This document shows, in pieces, positions 3,574 through 16,483 of a stretch of DNA of 64,000 bases. A program made the position numbers and the translations under genes. The notes beneath the pieces are model-generated. The model searched no databases, was not told where the DNA came from, and saw nothing but the letters and a program-made list of their open reading frames with translations. Numbering within the stretch: position 1 is the stretch's first letter; every line of letters starts with the position of its first letter. The DNA lies in NCBI RefSeq assembly GCF_048403405.1, contig NZ_CP183129.1; one strand, given 5' to 3'. The DNA comes from Escherichia coli. GTDB taxonomy: Bacteria; Pseudomonadota; Gammaproteobacteria; Enterobacterales; Enterobacteriaceae.

Positions 3574-5559
3574 ATGAAAACCGTTAGGGAGTCCACAACG
3601 TTGTACAACTTTCTCGGATCGCACAATCCATACTGGCGGTTAACGGAAAGCAGCGATGTTTTGCGCTTTTCTACCACCGAAACCACAGAACCTGAACGTA
3701 CGTTGCAGTTATCTGCCGAACAGGCTGCTCGCATCAGGGAAATGACAGTCATCACTTCCAGTCTGATGATGAGTCTGACCGTCGATGAAAGCGATCTTTC
3801 TGTGCATCTGGTAGGACGAAAAATCAATAAACGGGAATGGGCTGGCAACGCGTCGGCATGGCATGACACACCGGCGGTTGCTCGTGATTTATCACACGGG
3901 CTTTCCTTTGCTGAGCAGGTAGTTTCTGAAGCACATTCCGCAATAGTGATTCTCGACAGTCGGGGGAATATCCAGCGCTTCAATCGGTTATGTGAAGATT
4001 ACACAGGGTTGAAAGAACACGACGTCATTGGGCAAAGCGTGTTTAAACTGTTTATGAGCCGTCGTGAAGCTGCGGCATCCAGGCGCAATAACCGTGTATT
4101 TTTTCGAAGCGGCAATGCATATGAAGTCGAACTGTGGATACCAACACGTAAAGGCCAGCGGCTGTTTCTGTTTCGCAATAAATTTGTCCACAGCGGTAGT
4201 GGCAAAAACGAGATTTTTTTAATCTGTTCCGGCACCGACATTACCGAAGAGCGCCGCGCTCAGGAGCGACTGCGCATTCTGGCAAATACCGACAGTATCA
4301 CCGGACTGCCGAATCGTAACGCAATGCAGGAGTTAATCGATCACGCTATTAATCAGGCAGATAACAATAAAGTTGGGGTTGTGTATCTTGATTTGGATAA
4401 TTTTAAAAAGGTCAACGACGCCTATGGGCATTTGTTTGGTGACCAGCTATTACGCGACGTGTCATTGGCTATTTTAAGCTGTCTCGAACATGACCAGGTG
4501 TTGGCGCGTCCAGGTGGCGATGAGTTTCTGGTACTGGCATCCAACACCTCACAAAGCGCGCTGGAAGCAATGGCATCACGAATTTTGACCCGCTTACGGC
4601 TCCCCTTTCGCATTGGTTTAATTGAAGTTTATACCAGCTGTTCAGTAGGTATTGCACTCTCTCCCGAACATGGTTCAGACAGCACGGCTATTATTCGTCA
4701 CGCCGACACAGCAATGTACACAGCGAAGGAAGGCGGACGAGGACAATTTTGCGTTTTTACCCCAGAAATGAATCAACGGGTATTTGAATATCTCTGGCTG
4801 GATACCAACTTGCGTAAAGCACTGGAAAACGATCAGTTGGTTATTCACTATCAACCGAAAATCACCTGGCGTGGCGAAGTGCGCAGTCTGGAAGCACTAG
4901 TACGTTGGCAGTCACCTGAACGTGGGTTGATTCCACCGTTGGACTTCATTTCCTACGCCGAAGAGTCAGGGCTAATTGTGCCTTTAGGCCGTTGGGTGAT
5001 TCTCGATGTCGTACGCCAGGTGGCGAAGTGGCGGGATAAAGGTATTAACCTGCGAGTGGCGGTAAATATTTCTGCACGTCAGCTCGCCGATCAAACCATT
5101 TTCACCGCCCTGAAACAGGTTCTCCAGGAACTCAATTTTGAATACTGCCCTATAGATGTTGAACTGACAGAGAGTTGTCTGATTGAGAATGATGAACTGG
5201 CACTGTCTGTTATTCAACAATTTAGCCAACTAGGTGCGCAAGTGCATCTGGATGATTTTGGTACCGGCTACTCTTCACTTTCGCAACTGGCGCGCTTTCC
5301 GATCGATGCCATCAAACTTGACCAGGTTTTTGTTCGAGATATTCACAAACAACCTGTCTCGCAGTCACTGGTCCGGGCGATCGTCGCTGTGGCCCAGGCA
5401 TTGAATCTTCAGGTGATCGCCGAAGGTGTAGAGAGTGCAAAGGAAGATGCTTTTTTAACCAAGAACGGGATCAATGAGCGGCAAGGATTTTTGTTTGCCA
5501 AACCGATGCCCGCCGTCGCCTTCGAACGCTGGTATAAACGCTATCTGAAGCGCGCATAA
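3574..5559 (+). CDS. pdeR: c-di-GMP phosphodiesterase PdeR (YciR/Gmr), PAS-GGDEF-EAL
   Basis: 661-aa ORF with GGDEF-like and EAL regions; position between rnb and yciT. Confidence 0.9.
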   Translation: MKTVRESTTLYNFLGSHNPYWRLTESSDVLRFSTTETTEPERTLQLSAEQAARIREMTVITSSLMMSLTVDESDLSVHLVGRKINKREWAGNASAWHDTPAVARDLSHGLSFAEQVVSEAHSAIVILDSRGNIQRFNRLCEDYTGLKEHDVIGQSVFKLFMSRREAAASRRNNRVFFRSGNAYEVELWIPTRKGQRLFLFRNKFVHSGSGKNEIFLICSGTDITEERRAQERLRILANTDSITGLPNRNAMQELIDHAINQADNNKVGVVYLDLDNFKKVNDAYGHLFGDQLLRDVSLAILSCLEHDQVLARPGGDEFLVLASNTSQSALEAMASRILTRLRLPFRIGLIEVYTSCSVGIALSPEHGSDSTAIIRHADTAMYTAKEGGRGQFCVFTPEMNQRVFEYLWLDTNLRKALENDQLVIHYQPKITWRGEVRSLEALVRWQSPERGLIPPLDFISYAEESGLIVPLGRWVILDVVRQVAKWRDKGINLRVAVNISARQLADQTIFTALKQVLQELNFEYCPIDVELTESCLIENDELALSVIQQFSQLGAQVHLDDFGTGYSSLSQLARFPIDAIKLDQVFVRDIHKQPVSQSLVRAIVAVAQALNLQVIAEGVESAKEDAFLTKNGINERQGFLFAKPMPAVAFERWYKRYLKRA

Positions 5560-11807: not shown

Positions 11808-14483
11808 TTACTTCAACATATTACGAATGACATAATGCAAAATGCCGTCGTTCTGGTAGTAGGTCAACTCCGTCGCGGTGTCGATACGACAACGGCAGGG
11901 TACGACTTCCTGGCTACCATCCGCGCGCGTAAACGTCACCGGAACCGTCGCGCCGGGTTGTAGACTTTGCAGATCGCCAATATCAATCTTCTCTTCCCCG
12001 ATTAGCCCTAACGTTTTACGCATCACGCCTTGCGGAAATTCTAGCGGCAGGATGCCCATGCCAATTAAATTCGAGCGGTGAATTCGTTCAAACGATTCGG
12101 CAATCACAACACGAATACCAAGTAGACGCGGACCTTTTGCCGCCCAGTCACGGCTGGAGCCTGATCCATACTCTTTCCCGGCAATCACCGCCAGCGGCGT
12201 TTGCGCCTGCTTATAGCGCATCGCGGCATCATAAATAGAGATGACCTCGCTGTCAGGTAAATGCCGCGTCATCCCCCCTTCAACGCCAGGCACCATTTCA
12301 TTACGGATGCGAATATTGGCGAAGGTGCCGCGCATCATCACTTCATGGTTACCACGCCGCGAACCGTAGGAGTTAAAGTCTTTTCGCTCAACACCCCGAC
12401 CTTGTAGATATCGACCCGCTGGGCTGTCGGGCTTAATACTGCCCGCCGGAGAGATATGGTCAGTGGTGACTGAATCCCCCAGCATTGCGAGGATCCGCGC
12501 ACCGTGAATATCTTCCACAGGTTCTGGTGTTGCCTGCATTTCATCAAAGAAAGGCGATAAGCGAATATAGGTTGAATCTTCCTGCCAACCGTAGGTATCG
12601 GATCGTGTGACGTTAATTTCCTTCCACTCTGCTGTGCCTTCAAAAACTTCTGCGTACTCTTTGCGGAACATTTCTGTGGAGACTTGTTCTACCGCACGGG
12701 CAATTTCTTGTGCCGATGGCCAGATATCTTTCAGATATACCGGATCGCCTTTGCGATCATGGCCGATAGGCTCAGATGCGAGGTTGATATTCATATTTCC
12801 CGCCAGCGCATAGGCAACCACCAGCGGCGGCGAGGCCAGCCAGTTGGTTTTAACCAGCGGATGGATACGGCCTTCAAAGTTACGGTTGCCGGACAGCACT
12901 GCACCGACGGTTAAATCGCCTTTTTTGATTGCCGTTTCGATAGGGTCGGGCAGCGGCCCAGAGTTACCAATACAGGTGGTACAACCGTATCCCACAAGGT
13001 TAAACCCCAGTTCGTCGAGATACGGTGTCAATTTCGCTTTTGCCAGATAGTCAGAAACAACTTTCGAGCCTGGTGCCAGCGACGCTTTGACCCACGGTTG
13101 CCGCTTGAGGCCCAGAGTTACGGCTTTTTTCGCCAGCAAGCCTGCGGCCATCAGCACACTTGGGTTAGAGGTATTGGTGCACGACGTTATCGCAGCAATG
13201 ACCACCGCGCCATCAGGTAACTGATACTGATGTCCGTTCATAACATAATCGACCGGCTGGCGATCTTTATGCGTGGCATTTACTTCCAGTTCGTTACTGG
13301 CGGCAAATGCTTTTGGTACATCGGGCAGTGCAACGCGATCCTGTGGGCGTTTTGGCCCTGCCAGGCTCGCTTCAACGTCATTCATATCCAGTTCTAACGT
13401 ACTGGTAAAAATCGGTTCATCGCCCGGATTACGCCACATGCCCTGCGCTTTGGCGTATTTTTCGACCAACTCGACCTGATCTTCACTGCGCCCGCTTAAA
13501 CGCATGTAATCGAGGGTGACAGCATCGATTGGGAAGAAGCCACAGGTGGCACCATATTCTGGCGACATATTGGCAATGGTGGCGCGATCCGCCAGCGGTA
13601 GTGAATCCAGCCCATCACCATAAAATTCGACGAATTTCCCCACCACGCCATGTTTGCGCAGCATTTGGGTAACGGTGAGAACCAGGTCTGTGGCGGTAAT
13701 ACCTTCACGTAATTTTCCGGTAAGTTTAAAGCCTACTACGTCCGGGATAAGCATGGAAACCGGCTGGCCTAACATTGCGGCTTCTGCTTCGATGCCACCA
13801 ACGCCCCACCCCAGCACGCCAAGGCCGTTGATCATGGTGGTGTGCGAGTCAGTACCAACGAGTGTATCCGGATAAGCAATCCATTCACCGTCCTGCAATT
13901 CGCTCCACACTGCTTTGCCGAGATATTCGAGGTTAACCTGATGGCAAATGCCTGTGCCTGGCGGCACGACGCTAAACCGACTGAACGCTTGCTTTCCCCA
14001 TTTCAGGAACACATAACGTTCGTGGTTGCGCTCCATTTCCAGGCGTACGTTTTCTTCAAATGCCTCATCATCACCAAAACGATCGACGGTCACCGAGTGG
14101 TCAATAACCAGGTCGACCGGTGAGAGCGGGTTAACCTTTGCAGTATCGCCGCCGAGGCGTTTAACCGCTTCGCGCATTGCCGCCAGATCAACAACGGCAG
14201 GTACGCCGGTAAAGTCCTGCATCAGCACCCTTGCCGGGCGGTAGGCAATTTCACGGTCAGCATGGGCATTTTTCAGCCATCCCGCCAGCGCGTAGATATC
14301 CTCTTCGGTAACCGAGTTACCATCCTGCCAGCGCAGCAGGTTTTCGAGCAAAACTTTGAGTGACTTAGGCAAACGGGTGATATCGCCCAGTGATTTGGCA
14401 GCAAGCGGCAGGCTGTAGTAGTGGTAAGTTTTATCTTTGGCCTGCAACGTGTCCTTACTGGCTTCTCGTAGGGTTGACGACAT
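11808..14483 (-). CDS. acnA: aconitate hydratase A
   Basis: 891-aa ORF with aconitase family sequence. Confidence 0.95.
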
Positions 14484-14646
14484 AGCTCCTCCTTAATGAC
14501 AGGGTTGCGAAGCCCTGATTCTCTTCAGGGTGAATATTAAAGATAACACAAACATCGCGTAACGATTTGATAACAACCCAAATTGATAAAAGAGGAGAAA
14601 GCTTGTGGCAAAACAAATGAAAACCCCGCCGCAGCGGGGTCAGGGA

Positions 14647-14742
14647 TCAGTGAGTAATGATCCAGAGGAGTTCGGCCCAGAAGAGCATCGACAGAGAAAA
14701 TGCGCCCATCCAGGACCAATATTTCATATTTGTGTTGATCAT
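14647..14742 (-). CDS. putative 31-aa hydrophobic small protein (MINTNMKYWSWMGAFSLSMLFWAELLWIITH)
   Basis: short ORF with upstream purine-rich stretch and downstream GC hairpin plus U tract; below the 60-aa ORF-track cutoff. Confidence 0.35.
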   Translation of the reverse strand: MINTNMKYWSWMGAFSLSMLFWAELLWIITH

Positions 14743-14855
14743 AGGCTACACCTTTAACGGTTATTACTTTGTGTTGAGATAACTCAACCTGTTATTGCTG
14801 CGGTGTATTAAAAGCCCTGTAATTCATTAAAAATGGGTAATAAGAATGATGATAA

Positions 14856-15023
14856 TTATTGTTTCGGCTGATCATCTTCAGCAAACAGTTCTATAAAGGC
14901 TTGCTGCTGCGATGTTAGTTGCCAGTCGTCTGGAATAACGACGGAACATTCCCGTTTCGTTTCTGTTTCATTGTCACTATGCTGGCATAATGGTGACGAC
15001 TCCAGTTGCTCCTGACCGACCAT
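14856..15023 (-). CDS. yciX: small protein YciX
   Basis: 55-codon ORF from MVGQEQLESSPLCQ within listed ORF 14856..15044; overlaps stop of upstream small ORF (taactATG). Confidence 0.6.
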   Translation of the reverse strand: MVGQEQLESSPLCQHSDNETETKRECSVVIPDDWQLTSQQQAFIELFAEDDQPKQ

Positions 15024-15025
15024 AG

Positions 15026-15166
15026 TTATCCCCACACTTTCCAAATCAGCAGTGCGACAACCACCCAGAAAAGTGCAGAACCAAGAAAAACCGCCAGCCA
15101 GGCTTTACGTTTTAATTCAGGATCGCGGCGGGGTTCCTGATTTCCAGAAGGCATTGCTAACCTCAT
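15026..15166 (-). CDS. ymiA: small membrane protein, YmiA-like
   Basis: 42-46 codon ORF with one TM helix (AWLAVFLGSALFWVVVALLIW), translationally coupled to yciX. Confidence 0.45.
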   Translation of the reverse strand: MRLAMPSGNQEPRRDPELKRKAWLAVFLGSALFWVVVALLIWKVWG

Positions 15167-15484
15167 ATAATCGCCATCACTTATCAGCAAGACGTTGAAC
15201 GATTGGTGTAATTAATCATACGATGAGACAAATCCTAAAGAAACTTTAGTCAAAAATCCAGCGAATTTACGAATCGTCTCCAGTGAATAATTCAATCTTT
15301 TGACCTGAAATAGATATTTGAAAACTCGAGTTTGCGAGGCGGGTAATTAGACACTACTTTACAGGTAATTTACCCTATAAATATGAGGGATAAAAATATT
15401 GTGCACGGTATACAAATAAGCAACAAAAGAGAATATATTCCGGCACCTTCGCTACATAAAAGGTGCCGAAAATAACGCAAGAAA

Positions 15485-16483
<999 letters not shown>

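What the first reader, a model, noticed from the sequence alone, without database searches (positions are those of the whole stretch)
14647..15166. Cluster of three very small ORFs between acnA and cysB
Besides YciX (55 aa) there is a translationally coupled upstream 42-46-aa single-TM ORF and a separate 31-aa hydrophobic ORF with its own terminator hairpin. All are below typical annotation cutoffs; they are candidate small membrane proteins.
Basis: partly seen in the sequence, partly recalled or inferred. Interest (0 to 1): 0.3.

Follow-up and report, generated by a model that had tools for sequence, protein, structure and literature searches.

The report
Known E. coli ymiA–yciX–ymiC small-protein operon
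The three tiny ORFs between cysB and acnA are real, but they are the already annotated and experimentally detected E. coli genes ymiA, yciX and ymiC, a low-magnesium-induced small-protein operon, so the finding is correct and not new.

Summary
On the minus strand lie ymiA (15166..15026, 46 aa; alternative ATG at 15154 gives 42 aa), yciX (15023..14856, 55 aa), ymiC (14742..14647, 31 aa) and an intrinsic terminator (14641..14622 plus a U-run). All three are annotated in K-12 (b4522, b4523, b4741) and in most of 5,421 matching E. coli genomes. YmiA and YmiC have curated HMM families.

Published work shows:
- YmiA translation: start-site ribosome profiling, a tryptic peptide and targeted mass spectrometry.
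- YmiC translation: SPA tagging and ribosome profiling.
- Membrane localisation of both.
- PhoQ-dependent low-Mg2+ induction of a ymiA-yciX-ymiC operon.

My comparison of 80 cysB-anchored loci adds:
- Codon-level purifying selection on all three ORFs.
- A conserved 2-nt ymiA/yciX junction with a Shine-Dalgarno sequence inside ymiA.
- A covarying terminator.

YciX is hydrophilic and acidic, not a membrane protein.

Minor new points:
- The Rfam "sRNA" STnc180 is the ymiC coding region plus its terminator.
- YmiA and YmiC share a transmembrane motif (hhalign probability 91%).
- The 4 to 11 codons before ATG 15154 evolve like leader sequence, not coding sequence.

Biochemical function remains unknown. 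Novelty: already known. Interest: low.

The parts
15167..15396 (-). Strongly conserved region upstream of ymiA (promoter, operator and leader). It includes the palindrome CTAAAG-TTT-CTTTAG (15249-15235), a -10-like TATGAT (15219-15214) and the block ATGATAAGTGAT.TCGATTGTATGAGG.
   Evidence: Alignment of 31 genera. No sigma-70 consensus promoter on this strand. No conserved RNA structure. Only 3-mismatch PhoP-box matches. [quoted passage not shown]
15026..15166 (-). ymiA (b4522). The annotated product is 46 aa (MRLAMPSG...): a single-pass inner-membrane protein with a basic N-terminal tail and a transmembrane segment at residues 23-42. An alternative start at ATG 15154, preceded by GAGG (15163-15160), gives a 42-aa form.
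   Evidence: RefSeq annotation. NCBIfam NF000536 at 96.8 bits and Pfam PF22868 at 125.9 bits. TetRP start and peptide LAMPSGNQEPR. PRM mass spectrometry at about 1000-3000 copies per cell. GFP-YmiA at the membrane. Found in 73 of 80 loci. Codon-position diversity .31/.23/.54. Start-codon analysis.
15029..15033 (-). GGGGA, the last two sense codons of ymiA, acting as the Shine-Dalgarno sequence for yciX. The junction reads TAA-CT-ATG.
   Evidence: Read directly from the sequence. The gap is -4 to +4 nt in 57 of 63 distinct orthologous junctions, and GGGG(A/G/T) is retained. Coupling itself is inferred, not shown.
14856..15023 (-). yciX (b4523), 55 aa. It is soluble and acidic (net charge -9). 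The N-terminal half is variable and predicted disordered. The C-terminal motif IPxSWxL(T/N)xxQxxFI(D/E)xF is conserved and predicted helical at residues 38-50.
   Evidence: RefSeq annotation. No Pfam or NCBIfam family. 55-sequence alignment A3. AlphaFold2 pLDDT 63.7 with one helix. Codon-position diversity .48/.43/.62. Found in 67 of 80 loci, always immediately after ymiA.
14792..14811 (-). Conserved block TTAATACACCGCAGCAATAA in the yciX-ymiC spacer. Its role is unknown. It is the 5' part of the Rfam STnc180 model.
   Evidence: Alignments. It contains 1- and 3-nt indels, so it is not coding.
14773..14788 (-). Small hairpin GTTGAG-TTAT-CTCAAC about 30 nt upstream of the ymiC start. It is conserved through compensatory changes.
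   Evidence: RNAalifold: 4 of 5 pairs keep pairing after changes on both sides.
14647..14742 (-). ymiC (b4741), 31 aa, a single-pass membrane protein. Its Shine-Dalgarno sequence AGGTG is at 14753-14749.
   Evidence: RefSeq annotation. NCBIfam NF041484 at 66.3 bits and Pfam PF23694 at 87.5 bits. SPA-tag detection and TetRP signal (PMC6001520). Ribo-RET signal and GFP-YmiC at the membrane. Found in 50 of 80 loci. Codon-position diversity .41/.27/.55.
14608..14641 (-). Rho-independent terminator of the operon: stem GACCCCGC/GCGGGGUU, loop UGCG, then UUUUCAUUUGUUUU. It lies upstream of the proximal acnA promoter region.
   Evidence: -16.4 kcal/mol. Conserved with compensatory changes across genera.
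14613..14815 (-). Match to Rfam RF02079 'Enterobacterial sRNA STnc180'. It is the same stretch as the spacer hairpin, the ymiC ORF and the terminator.
   Evidence: 201.6 bits against a gathering score of 50. Hits in 9 of 9 Enterobacteriaceae loci with ymiC and 0 of 5 loci without it. Northern blots in Salmonella gave 500-2000 nt species, 'likely processed mRNA' (PMC2515195).

Best explanation
The region is the known ymiA-yciX-ymiC operon of Escherichia coli.

Transcription. Transcription starts in the conserved region downstream of the cysB terminator. That promoter has no good sigma-70 consensus, and published reporter fusions show it is induced by Mg2+ limitation in a PhoQ-dependent way. This step is shown in the literature.

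Translation of YmiA. Ribosomes translate YmiA, a 42- to 46-aa single-pass inner-membrane protein with its N terminus inside the cell. Translation and localisation are shown.

Translation of YciX. Ribosomes finishing ymiA terminate 2 nt before the yciX ATG, just after a GGGGA Shine-Dalgarno sequence formed by the last ymiA codons. YciX is therefore most likely made by termination-reinitiation coupling. This step is inferred from an arrangement conserved across Enterobacteriaceae and Erwiniaceae.

YciX itself. It is a soluble, acidic, largely disordered 55-aa protein whose only conserved part is a short C-terminal helix. That suggests a docking motif (inferred).

YmiC and termination. After a 113-nt spacer, YmiC is translated from its own Shine-Dalgarno sequence on the same transcript. 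YmiC is a 31-aa membrane protein with its N terminus inside. A reporter fusion of the region immediately upstream of ymiC had negligible activity (literature). A strong intrinsic terminator then ends the transcript before the proximal acnA promoter.

Function. The biochemical function is not known. My committed guess, at roughly 0.3, is as follows. YmiA and YmiC share a K-x3-W-x3-F-x2-S-x-LFW transmembrane motif. They would act like other PhoP-controlled small membrane proteins (MgrB, MgtS) by binding and modulating a larger inner-membrane protein during Mg2+ limitation. YciX would act as a cytoplasmic accessory.
For: Identity:
- 100% DNA match with all three genes annotated in RefSeq; 5,382 of 5,426 complete E. 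coli genomes hold at least 80% of the region.
- K-12 b4522, b4523 and b4741, with protein sequences identical to the window.
- Curated HMMs far above their cut-offs for YmiA and YmiC.

Expression and localisation, from papers:
- TetRP start site MRLAMPSG and tryptic peptide LAMPSGNQEPR (PMC4909307 supplement).
- YmiA quantified by PRM (PMC12529367).
- YmiC detected by SPA tag and in TetRP data (PMC6001520).

- Presence: all three ORFs in 49 loci, ymiA plus yciX in 18, ymiA alone in 5.
- Third-codon-position excess and pooled pN/pS of 0.39, 0.60 and 0.48 with saturated dS.
- Window against K-12: 12 differences in 1001 nt, of which 11 are intergenic and 1 is synonymous.
- Conserved coupling junction.
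- Covarying terminator.
- YmiA/YmiC profile-profile match: probability 91%, E = 1.1e-6, score 28.6 against a maximum of 19.1 in 200 column shuffles, plus reciprocal weak Pfam cross-hits.
Against: - Nothing contradicts the identity.
- Single deletions of ymiA or ymiC had no phenotype in low Mg2+, and YmiC overexpression had none. No partner is known.
- I found no canonical PhoP box, only 3-mismatch matches that are no better than background. PhoQ dependence may therefore be indirect.
- Translational coupling and YciX function are untested.
- The YmiA/YmiC similarity covers only 26 columns of a transmembrane helix. Other transmembrane families give E-values of similar size in Pfam scans, so common descent is suggested, not proven.
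- ymiC is missing from 23 of the 73 loci that have ymiA. E. albertii lacks the whole operon. The module is therefore dispensable.
Confidence: 0.95

Rival explanations
1. The 14613-14815 segment is a noncoding Hfq-associated small RNA (STnc180, as filed in Rfam), and the 31-codon ORF inside it is incidental.
For: A strong Rfam match at 201.6 bits. cDNA reads from this locus were recovered in the Salmonella Hfq study (PMC2515195). The model carries a proposed secondary structure.
Against: - The ORF is kept open with a nearly constant length (28-33 codons) in 50 distinct nucleotide sequences at saturated synonymous divergence.
- Codon-position diversity is .41/.27/.55.
- RNAalifold supports only the upstream hairpin and the terminator, and no helix inside the ORF.
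- The protein was detected by SPA tag and by start-site ribosome profiling, and a GFP fusion is at the membrane.
- The original Northern blot showed 500-2000 nt species that the authors called processed mRNA, not a roughly 200-nt sRNA.
- A dual-function RNA is not excluded.
Confidence: 0.04
2. The conserved DNA is regulatory sequence for acnA (distal promoter and long 5' UTR), and the ORFs are by-products of that conservation.
For: From memory (Cunningham, Gruer and Guest 1997; not held in the library, so not checked here): a distal acnA promoter was mapped about 400 nt upstream of the start codon. That would lie near the end of yciX and would place ymiC in a long acnA leader. A Fur-site cluster was predicted at -371 from acnA, which is about window 14854 (PMC2189734). 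The cysB-ymiA-acnA gene order is conserved.
Against: - Codon-periodic substitution and ORF retention show selection on the proteins.
- The proteins are detected experimentally.
- The Fur-like sequence is conserved only in Escherichia and some Citrobacter.
- A strong, conserved terminator separates ymiC from acnA.
- The two roles are not exclusive. Part of the region could still serve acnA.
Confidence: 0.03
3. The conserved YmiA protein is the 42-aa form that starts at ATG 15154. The annotated 46-aa start at 15166 would be a lineage-specific or minor initiation site.
For: - GAGG-N6-ATG(15154) is present in 52 loci (48 distinct sequences).
- The 11 codons downstream of 15154 show wobble-position excess (.20/.15/.43). 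The 11 codons upstream do not (.16/.19/.12).
- The codon equivalent to 15166 is ATG in only 33 of 48 sequences. Elsewhere it is ACG, GTG, AAG, GCG or GAG.
- The NCBIfam model has 42 positions and matches residues 5-46.
Against: - In E. coli, TetRP places the main initiation signal at MRLAMPSG. The tryptic peptide LAMPSGNQEPR proves translation upstream of Met5.
- The PRM study treats YmiA as 46 aa.
- Many genera also carry a further in-frame ATG (MISDVDC..., 38 of 48). Longer forms may therefore exist.
- Both starts may be used.
Confidence: 0.4

Closest known systems
E. coli K-12 ymiA (b4522), yciX (b4523) and ymiC (b4741)
   Same: The protein sequences are identical to the window, and so are the order, spacing and flanking genes cysB and acnA. 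DNA is 98.8% identical over the 1001-nt interval.
   Different: Nothing of substance. There are 12 nucleotide differences, 11 intergenic and 1 synonymous.
MgrB (47 aa) and MgtS (31 aa), PhoP-activated small inner-membrane proteins of E. coli
   Same: They match in size, single-pass membrane topology, induction by low Mg2+ through PhoQ/PhoP, and a prolonged lag phase on overexpression, which is also seen for YmiA (PMC11429745).
   Different: MgrB and MgtS have defined partners (from general knowledge: PhoQ; MgtA and PitA). No partner or deletion phenotype is known for YmiA or YmiC. There is no sequence similarity, and no canonical PhoP box was found here. So this is a resemblance in how they may work, not family membership.
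Rfam RF02079 STnc180 (Enterobacterial sRNA candidate from the Salmonella Hfq co-IP study)
   Same: It is the same locus. The covariance model matches full length at 201.6 bits and tracks the presence of ymiC across genera.
   Different: The stretch evolves as a protein-coding gene plus a terminator and encodes a detected protein. The original authors saw only long transcripts. The 'sRNA' label is therefore misleading.
Translationally coupled small-ORF pairs, such as mgtS-mgtT and yriA-yriB in the same low-Mg2+ stimulon
   Same: Stop and start codons are adjacent or overlapping within one operon (for those pairs, for ymiA/yciX).
   Different: ymiA and yciX are separated by 2 nt rather than overlapping out of frame, and the downstream product is a soluble 55-aa protein.

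Membership tests
YmiA family (NCBIfam NF000536, Pfam PF22868) | HMM score above the curated cut-off | tested here: met
   NF000536 at 96.8 bits (cut-off 30). PF22868 at 125.9 bits (cut-off 27).
YmiA family (NCBIfam NF000536, Pfam PF22868) | Single transmembrane helix preceded by a basic tail (KRKAW), and a membrane location | tested here: met
   Hydropathy window 2.54 at residues 24-42 and net charge +4. Invariant W23, F33 and W34. Membrane localisation is from PMC11429745 and was not tested here.
YmiC family (NCBIfam NF041484, Pfam PF23694) | HMM score above the curated cut-off | tested here: met
   NF041484 at 66.3 bits (cut-off 42). PF23694 at 87.5 bits (cut-off 27).
YciX (RefSeq 'protein YciX' / 'YciX family protein') | Sequence identity to K-12 b4523, and a position immediately downstream of ymiA | tested here: met
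   100% over 55 aa. The RefSeq product name lies under the match. No Pfam or NCBIfam model matched YciX.
Rfam RF02079 STnc180 sRNA | Covariance-model score above the gathering threshold | tested here: met
   201.6 bits against 50.
Rfam RF02079 STnc180 sRNA | Acts as a discrete noncoding RNA with a conserved structure | tested here: not met
   There is no covariation-supported helix inside the ORF. The substitution pattern is that of coding sequence. The published Northern blot shows only 500-2000 nt species. An RNA function was not directly testable.
PhoP/PhoQ regulon | PhoQ/PhoP-dependent transcription in low Mg2+ | not testable with these tools
   Reported from reporter fusions and RNA-seq in PMC11429745.
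PhoP/PhoQ regulon | A PhoP box, (T/G)GTTTA-N5-(T/G)GTTTA (consensus quoted from memory), next to the -10 element | tested here: inconclusive
   Only 3-mismatch matches at 15225-15252. The window holds 178 such matches against 126 expected by chance. Phased half-site-like hexamers TGACTA, TCTTTA and TGTCTC are present but degenerate.
Translationally coupled gene pair | Stop and start codons within a few nucleotides, with a Shine-Dalgarno sequence inside the upstream ORF, conserved across species | tested here: met
   TAA-CT-ATG with GGGGA upstream. The gap is -4 to +4 nt in 57 of 63 junctions. Dependence of yciX translation on ymiA translation is not testable here.
Intrinsic (Rho-independent) terminator | GC-rich hairpin followed by a U tract, conserved through compensatory change | tested here: met
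   (2 pairs keep pairing after changes on both sides).

The most novel reading that the evidence does not exclude
YmiA and YmiC may be ancient paralogues, or convergent ligands of one partner. Their transmembrane helices share the register-specific motif K-x3-W-x3-F-x2-S-x-L-F-W. On this reading the operon encodes two related membrane 'keys' plus a disordered acidic adaptor (YciX), which together tune one inner-membrane target under PhoQ control. Separately, the ymiC mRNA segment filed in Rfam as sRNA STnc180 could have a second, RNA-level role. A further possibility is that it sits in a long acnA leader, which would link Mg2+ status to aconitase A expression.
Probability: 0.25. Interest if true: 0.35.

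Novelty: already known. Interest (0 to 1): 0.1.

Why it matters
As a discovery it matters little. The three genes are in the reference annotation, have curated families and have been studied experimentally.

It does show that a reader working from raw sequence recovered genuine small-protein genes. It also tidies three loose ends:
- It flags an Rfam "sRNA" family that is really a small-protein gene.
- It documents that the ymiA/yciX coupling junction and the operon terminator are conserved from Escherichia to Erwinia.
- It raises a testable link between YmiA and YmiC that could guide the search for their still unknown membrane target in the Mg2+-limitation response.

Tried and rejected
1. PhoP-box scan. 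Matches near ymiA are no better than the window background, so no direct PhoP site is claimed.
2. Sigma-70 promoter scan. Nothing on the minus strand, so the promoter position stays unassigned.
3. RNAalifold on the ymiA leader. No conserved structure, so a riboswitch-like leader is not supported.
4. RNAalifold on the STnc180 region. Only the spacer hairpin and the terminator are supported.
5. PDB sequence searches.
   - The YmiA profile found nothing.
   - The YciX profile gave weak matches to the protein A helix LNEEQRNAFIQSLKDD, with no single stretch significant on its own. I treat this as a chance similarity between short helices.
6. PADLOC defence models: no match.
7. AlphaFold2 on YciX. 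The model is mostly disordered (pLDDT 63.7), so I ran no fold search.
8. Single-sequence homologue search with YciX. It found only Escherichia and Shigella sequences and some fused or truncated gene calls, so it was uninformative.
9. Checking the distal acnA promoter in the literature. The original paper is not held, so that point rests on memory.
10. A correction. An interim note implied that some genera have TAA in place of the 15166-equivalent start codon.

Full report
**What is in the sequence.** Read on the minus strand, the interval between cysB (16459..15485) and acnA (14483..11808) contains the following features:
- The cysB terminator, 15471..15438.
- About 270 nt of noncoding DNA.
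- An ORF that starts at ATG 15166, with a second in-frame ATG at 15154, and ends at TAA 15028-15026. It encodes 46 or 42 aa.
- Two nucleotides later, a 55-aa ORF at 15023..14856.
- A 113-nt spacer.
- A 31-aa ORF at 14742..14647.
- Five nucleotides later, an 8-bp GC-rich hairpin with a U-run at 14641..14608.

The hairpin folds at -16.4 kcal/mol, and only 1 of 200 shuffles folds as well. The finding's coordinates are therefore exact. ORFs of this size are common by chance: 31 ORFs of at least 20 aa overlap this 1.3-kb stretch. The case for these three rests on other evidence.

**Identity.**
- The 1001-nt interval matches 5,421 of 5,426 complete E. coli genomes. In the RefSeq records listed, the features under the match are ymiA, yciX and ymiC.
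- A 100%-identical strain and K-12 MG1655 both annotate the three genes. The K-12 locus tags are b4522, b4523 and b4741.
- The window's protein sequences are identical to those of K-12.
- YmiA matches NCBIfam NF000536 and Pfam PF22868. YmiC matches NF041484 and PF23694. All four scores are far above the curated cut-offs.
- YciX has no model in either library.

**Published experiments.**
- *Nakahigashi et al. 2016 (PMC4909307).* The supplementary table maps the tetracycline-arrested initiation signal for ymiA to MRLAMPSG... It also cites the tryptic peptide LAMPSGNQEPR.
- *VanOrsdel et al. 2018 (PMC6001520).* They named YmiC after detecting a chromosomal SPA fusion, and noted that it was already positive in the TetRP data.
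- *A 2025 proteomics paper (PMC12529367).* It quantified YmiA by PRM at roughly 1000-3000 copies per cell.
- *PMC11429745.*
  - YmiA and YmiC are among 17 small proteins whose start-site ribosome footprints rise at least 3-fold in low Mg2+.
  - The region upstream of ymiA drives a PhoQ-dependent reporter, while the region just upstream of ymiC has negligible activity.
  - The authors call the unit the ymiA-yciX-ymiC operon.
  - GFP-YmiA and GFP-YmiC are at the cell periphery.
  - Single deletions have no phenotype.
  - YmiA overexpression gives a long lag and longer cells, and a start-codon mutation abolishes the growth defect.

**Comparative test done here.** I used CysB as an anchor and fetched 80 loci from different species of Enterobacteriaceae and Erwiniaceae. 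I then located the three ORFs by tblastn and by HMMs built from the first hits.

| ORFs present between cysB and acnA | Loci |
|---|---|
| ymiA, yciX and ymiC | 49 |
| ymiA and yciX | 18 |
| ymiA only (Klebsiella and a few others) | 5 |
| ymiA and ymiC | 1 |
| none | 7 |

The seven empty loci include Escherichia albertii, where only 259 nt separate cysB from acnA, and three truncated or rearranged contigs.

Across 50-74 distinct nucleotide sequences the ORFs stay open and keep nearly constant lengths. Synonymous sites are saturated.

| Gene | Mean pairwise difference at codon positions 1/2/3 | Pooled pN/pS |
|---|---|---|
| ymiA | .31/.23/.54 | 0.39 |
| yciX | .48/.43/.62 | 0.60 |
| ymiC | .41/.27/.55 | 0.48 |

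Within E. coli, the window differs from K-12 at 12 of 1001 positions. Eleven are intergenic and one is a synonymous third-position change in ymiC.

**Anatomy and likely mechanism.**
- *Coupling junction.* The gap between the ymiA stop and the yciX ATG is -4 to +4 nt in 57 of 63 distinct junctions, and most often 2 nt. The last two ymiA codons (W-G, TGG GGN) always supply a GGGG(A/G/T) Shine-Dalgarno sequence. This is the classic arrangement for termination-reinitiation coupling. The coupling is inferred, not demonstrated.
- *YmiA.* It has a basic tail (KRKAW) followed by one hydrophobic helix.
- *YmiC.* It has a lysine followed by one helix.
- *YciX.* GRAVY is -0.94 and net charge is -9. AlphaFold2 predicts disorder for residues 1-30 and a single helix at 38-50 (pLDDT 63.7). 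That helix coincides with the only conserved motif, IPxSWxL(T/N)xxQxxFI(D/E)xF. YciX is therefore not a membrane protein.
- *Terminator.* The hairpin after ymiC is conserved with compensatory changes.
- *Upstream region.* About 230 nt upstream of ymiA are strongly conserved but show no conserved RNA fold, no sigma-70 consensus and no convincing PhoP box. The promoter is probably activator-dependent. Whether PhoP acts directly remains open.

**The 42- versus 46-aa question.**
- *For 46 aa.* In E. coli the experimental data favour the 46-aa form.
- *For a conserved start at 15154.* GAGG-N6-ATG(15154) is found in 52 loci. The 11 codons after that ATG show the coding signature (.20/.15/.43), while the 11 codons before it do not (.16/.19/.12). 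The 15166-equivalent codon is ATG in only 33 of 48 distinct sequences.
- *A possible longer form.* Many genera carry a further in-frame ATG, giving MISDVDC...
- *My reading.* The conserved core protein starts at 15154, and E. coli also initiates 4 codons upstream, perhaps mainly there. This needs start-codon mutants.
- *Correction.* An interim note implied that some genera carry TAA at the 15166-equivalent start position. Re-reading in frame shows the codon is AAG (corrected).

**STnc180.**
- Rfam RF02079, 'Enterobacterial sRNA STnc180', matches 14815..14613 at 201.6 bits. That stretch is the spacer hairpin, the whole ymiC ORF and the terminator.
- The model hits all 9 Enterobacteriaceae loci tested that have ymiC, and none of the 5 that lack it.
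- RNAalifold supports only the 5-bp spacer hairpin (14788..14773) and the terminator, and nothing inside the ORF.
- The authors who named STnc180 saw only 500-2000 nt bands and called it a probable processed mRNA.
- The family is therefore best read as a small-protein gene. A second, RNA-level role is not excluded.

**A possible YmiA-YmiC relationship.**
- The YmiC HMM repeatedly picked up YmiA frames.
- A profile-profile comparison of the two alignments gives probability 91% and E = 1.1e-6 over 26 columns. The aligned motif is K...W...F..S.LFW.
- The real score is 28.6. In 200 column-shuffled controls the mean was 9.1, the SD 2.1 and the maximum 19.1. The reversed profile scored 11.4.
- Pfam scans give reciprocal weak cross-hits: 9 of 48 YmiA sequences hit PF23694, and 4 of 44 YmiC sequences hit PF22868. 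Another transmembrane family, Ost4, scores at a similar level.
- This suggests shared ancestry or a shared binding surface. It does not prove either.

**Relation to acnA.**
- A Fur-site cluster predicted at -371 from acnA (PMC2189734) falls at about window 14854, just after the yciX stop. It is conserved only in Escherichia and some Citrobacter.
- From memory, a distal acnA promoter lies about 400 nt upstream of acnA, which would place ymiC in a long acnA leader. I could not check the source.
- The conserved terminator argues that most operon transcripts stop before acnA.

**Verdict.** Novelty: already known. Interest: about 0.1. The open question is the biochemical role of the three proteins.

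Noticed in passing
window 14613-14815 (-): The Rfam family RF02079 'sRNA STnc180' coincides with the ymiC coding sequence plus its terminator. It tracks the presence or absence of ymiC across genera, so the sRNA label looks like a misclassification of a small-protein gene.
   Followed up: yes
window 15026-15166 and 14647-14742 (-); alignments A1 and A2: The YmiA and YmiC transmembrane helices share the motif K-x3-W-x3-F-x2-S-x-LFW. hhalign gives probability 91%, and the real score of 28.6 exceeds all 200 column shuffles (maximum 19.1). They may be paralogues.
   Followed up: partly
window 15154-15190 (-); 52 orthologous loci: The 11 codons upstream of ATG 15154 are conserved at the nucleotide level with no third-position excess. 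The annotated start codon at 15166 is not ATG in 15 of 48 distinct sequences. Most non-Escherichia genera have a further in-frame ATG (MISDVDC...).
   Followed up: yes
window 15167-15396 (-): The roughly 230 nt upstream of ymiA are unusually well conserved across more than 25 genera. They include a CTAAAG-TTT-CTTTAG palindrome (15249-15235) and a direct repeat of CGATTGT-like sequence. There is no conserved RNA fold and no clear PhoP box, so the binding factors are unknown.
   Followed up: partly
window 14792-14811 and 14773-14788 (-): A conserved block TTAATACACCGCAGCAATAA, followed by a small covarying hairpin, lies in the yciX-ymiC spacer. Its function is unknown. It could be a processing site, a protein-binding site or a translation-control element for ymiC.
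   Followed up: partly
window ~14835-14875 (-): A Fur-box-like AT-rich sequence (AATAATTATCATCATTCTTATT) sits right after the yciX stop. It corresponds to a published predicted Fur cluster at -371 from acnA. It is conserved only in Escherichia and some Citrobacter.
   Followed up: partly
L005 (Escherichia albertii), 4973-5234: E. albertii has only 259 nt between cysB and acnA, so the whole ymiA-yciX-ymiC operon is absent. Pluralibacter gergoviae (L027), L038 and L059 also lack it.
   Followed up: partly
L048, L073, L077 (Klebsiella and relatives): Klebsiella keeps only a divergent YmiA (40-49% identity) with a different C terminus (...CNVWIVS). It has no yciX and no ymiC.
   Followed up: no
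proteins P0003, P0004, P0038, P0039: Some metagenome and genome gene calls fuse the N-terminal part of YmiA to full-length YciX through deletions or frameshifts inside the segment that encodes the transmembrane helix. P0004 stands for 37 member sequences. They could be natural variants or assembly errors.
   Followed up: no
alignment A3 (YciX), profile positions 36-54: The conserved YciX helix, L(T/N)xxQxxFIxSF/M, resembles LNEEQRNAFIQSLKDD in the IgG-binding domains of staphylococcal protein A. The whole-sequence E-value is 7e-5 only on multi-domain constructs, and no single stretch is significant. This is probably chance.
   Followed up: partly
window 14500-14600 (-): The proximal acnA promoter and leader (TTTATCAATTTGGGTTGTTATCAAA...TGTGTTATCTTTAAT, then a small hairpin ACCCTGA...TCAGGG) is almost invariant across all the genera aligned.
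   Followed up: no
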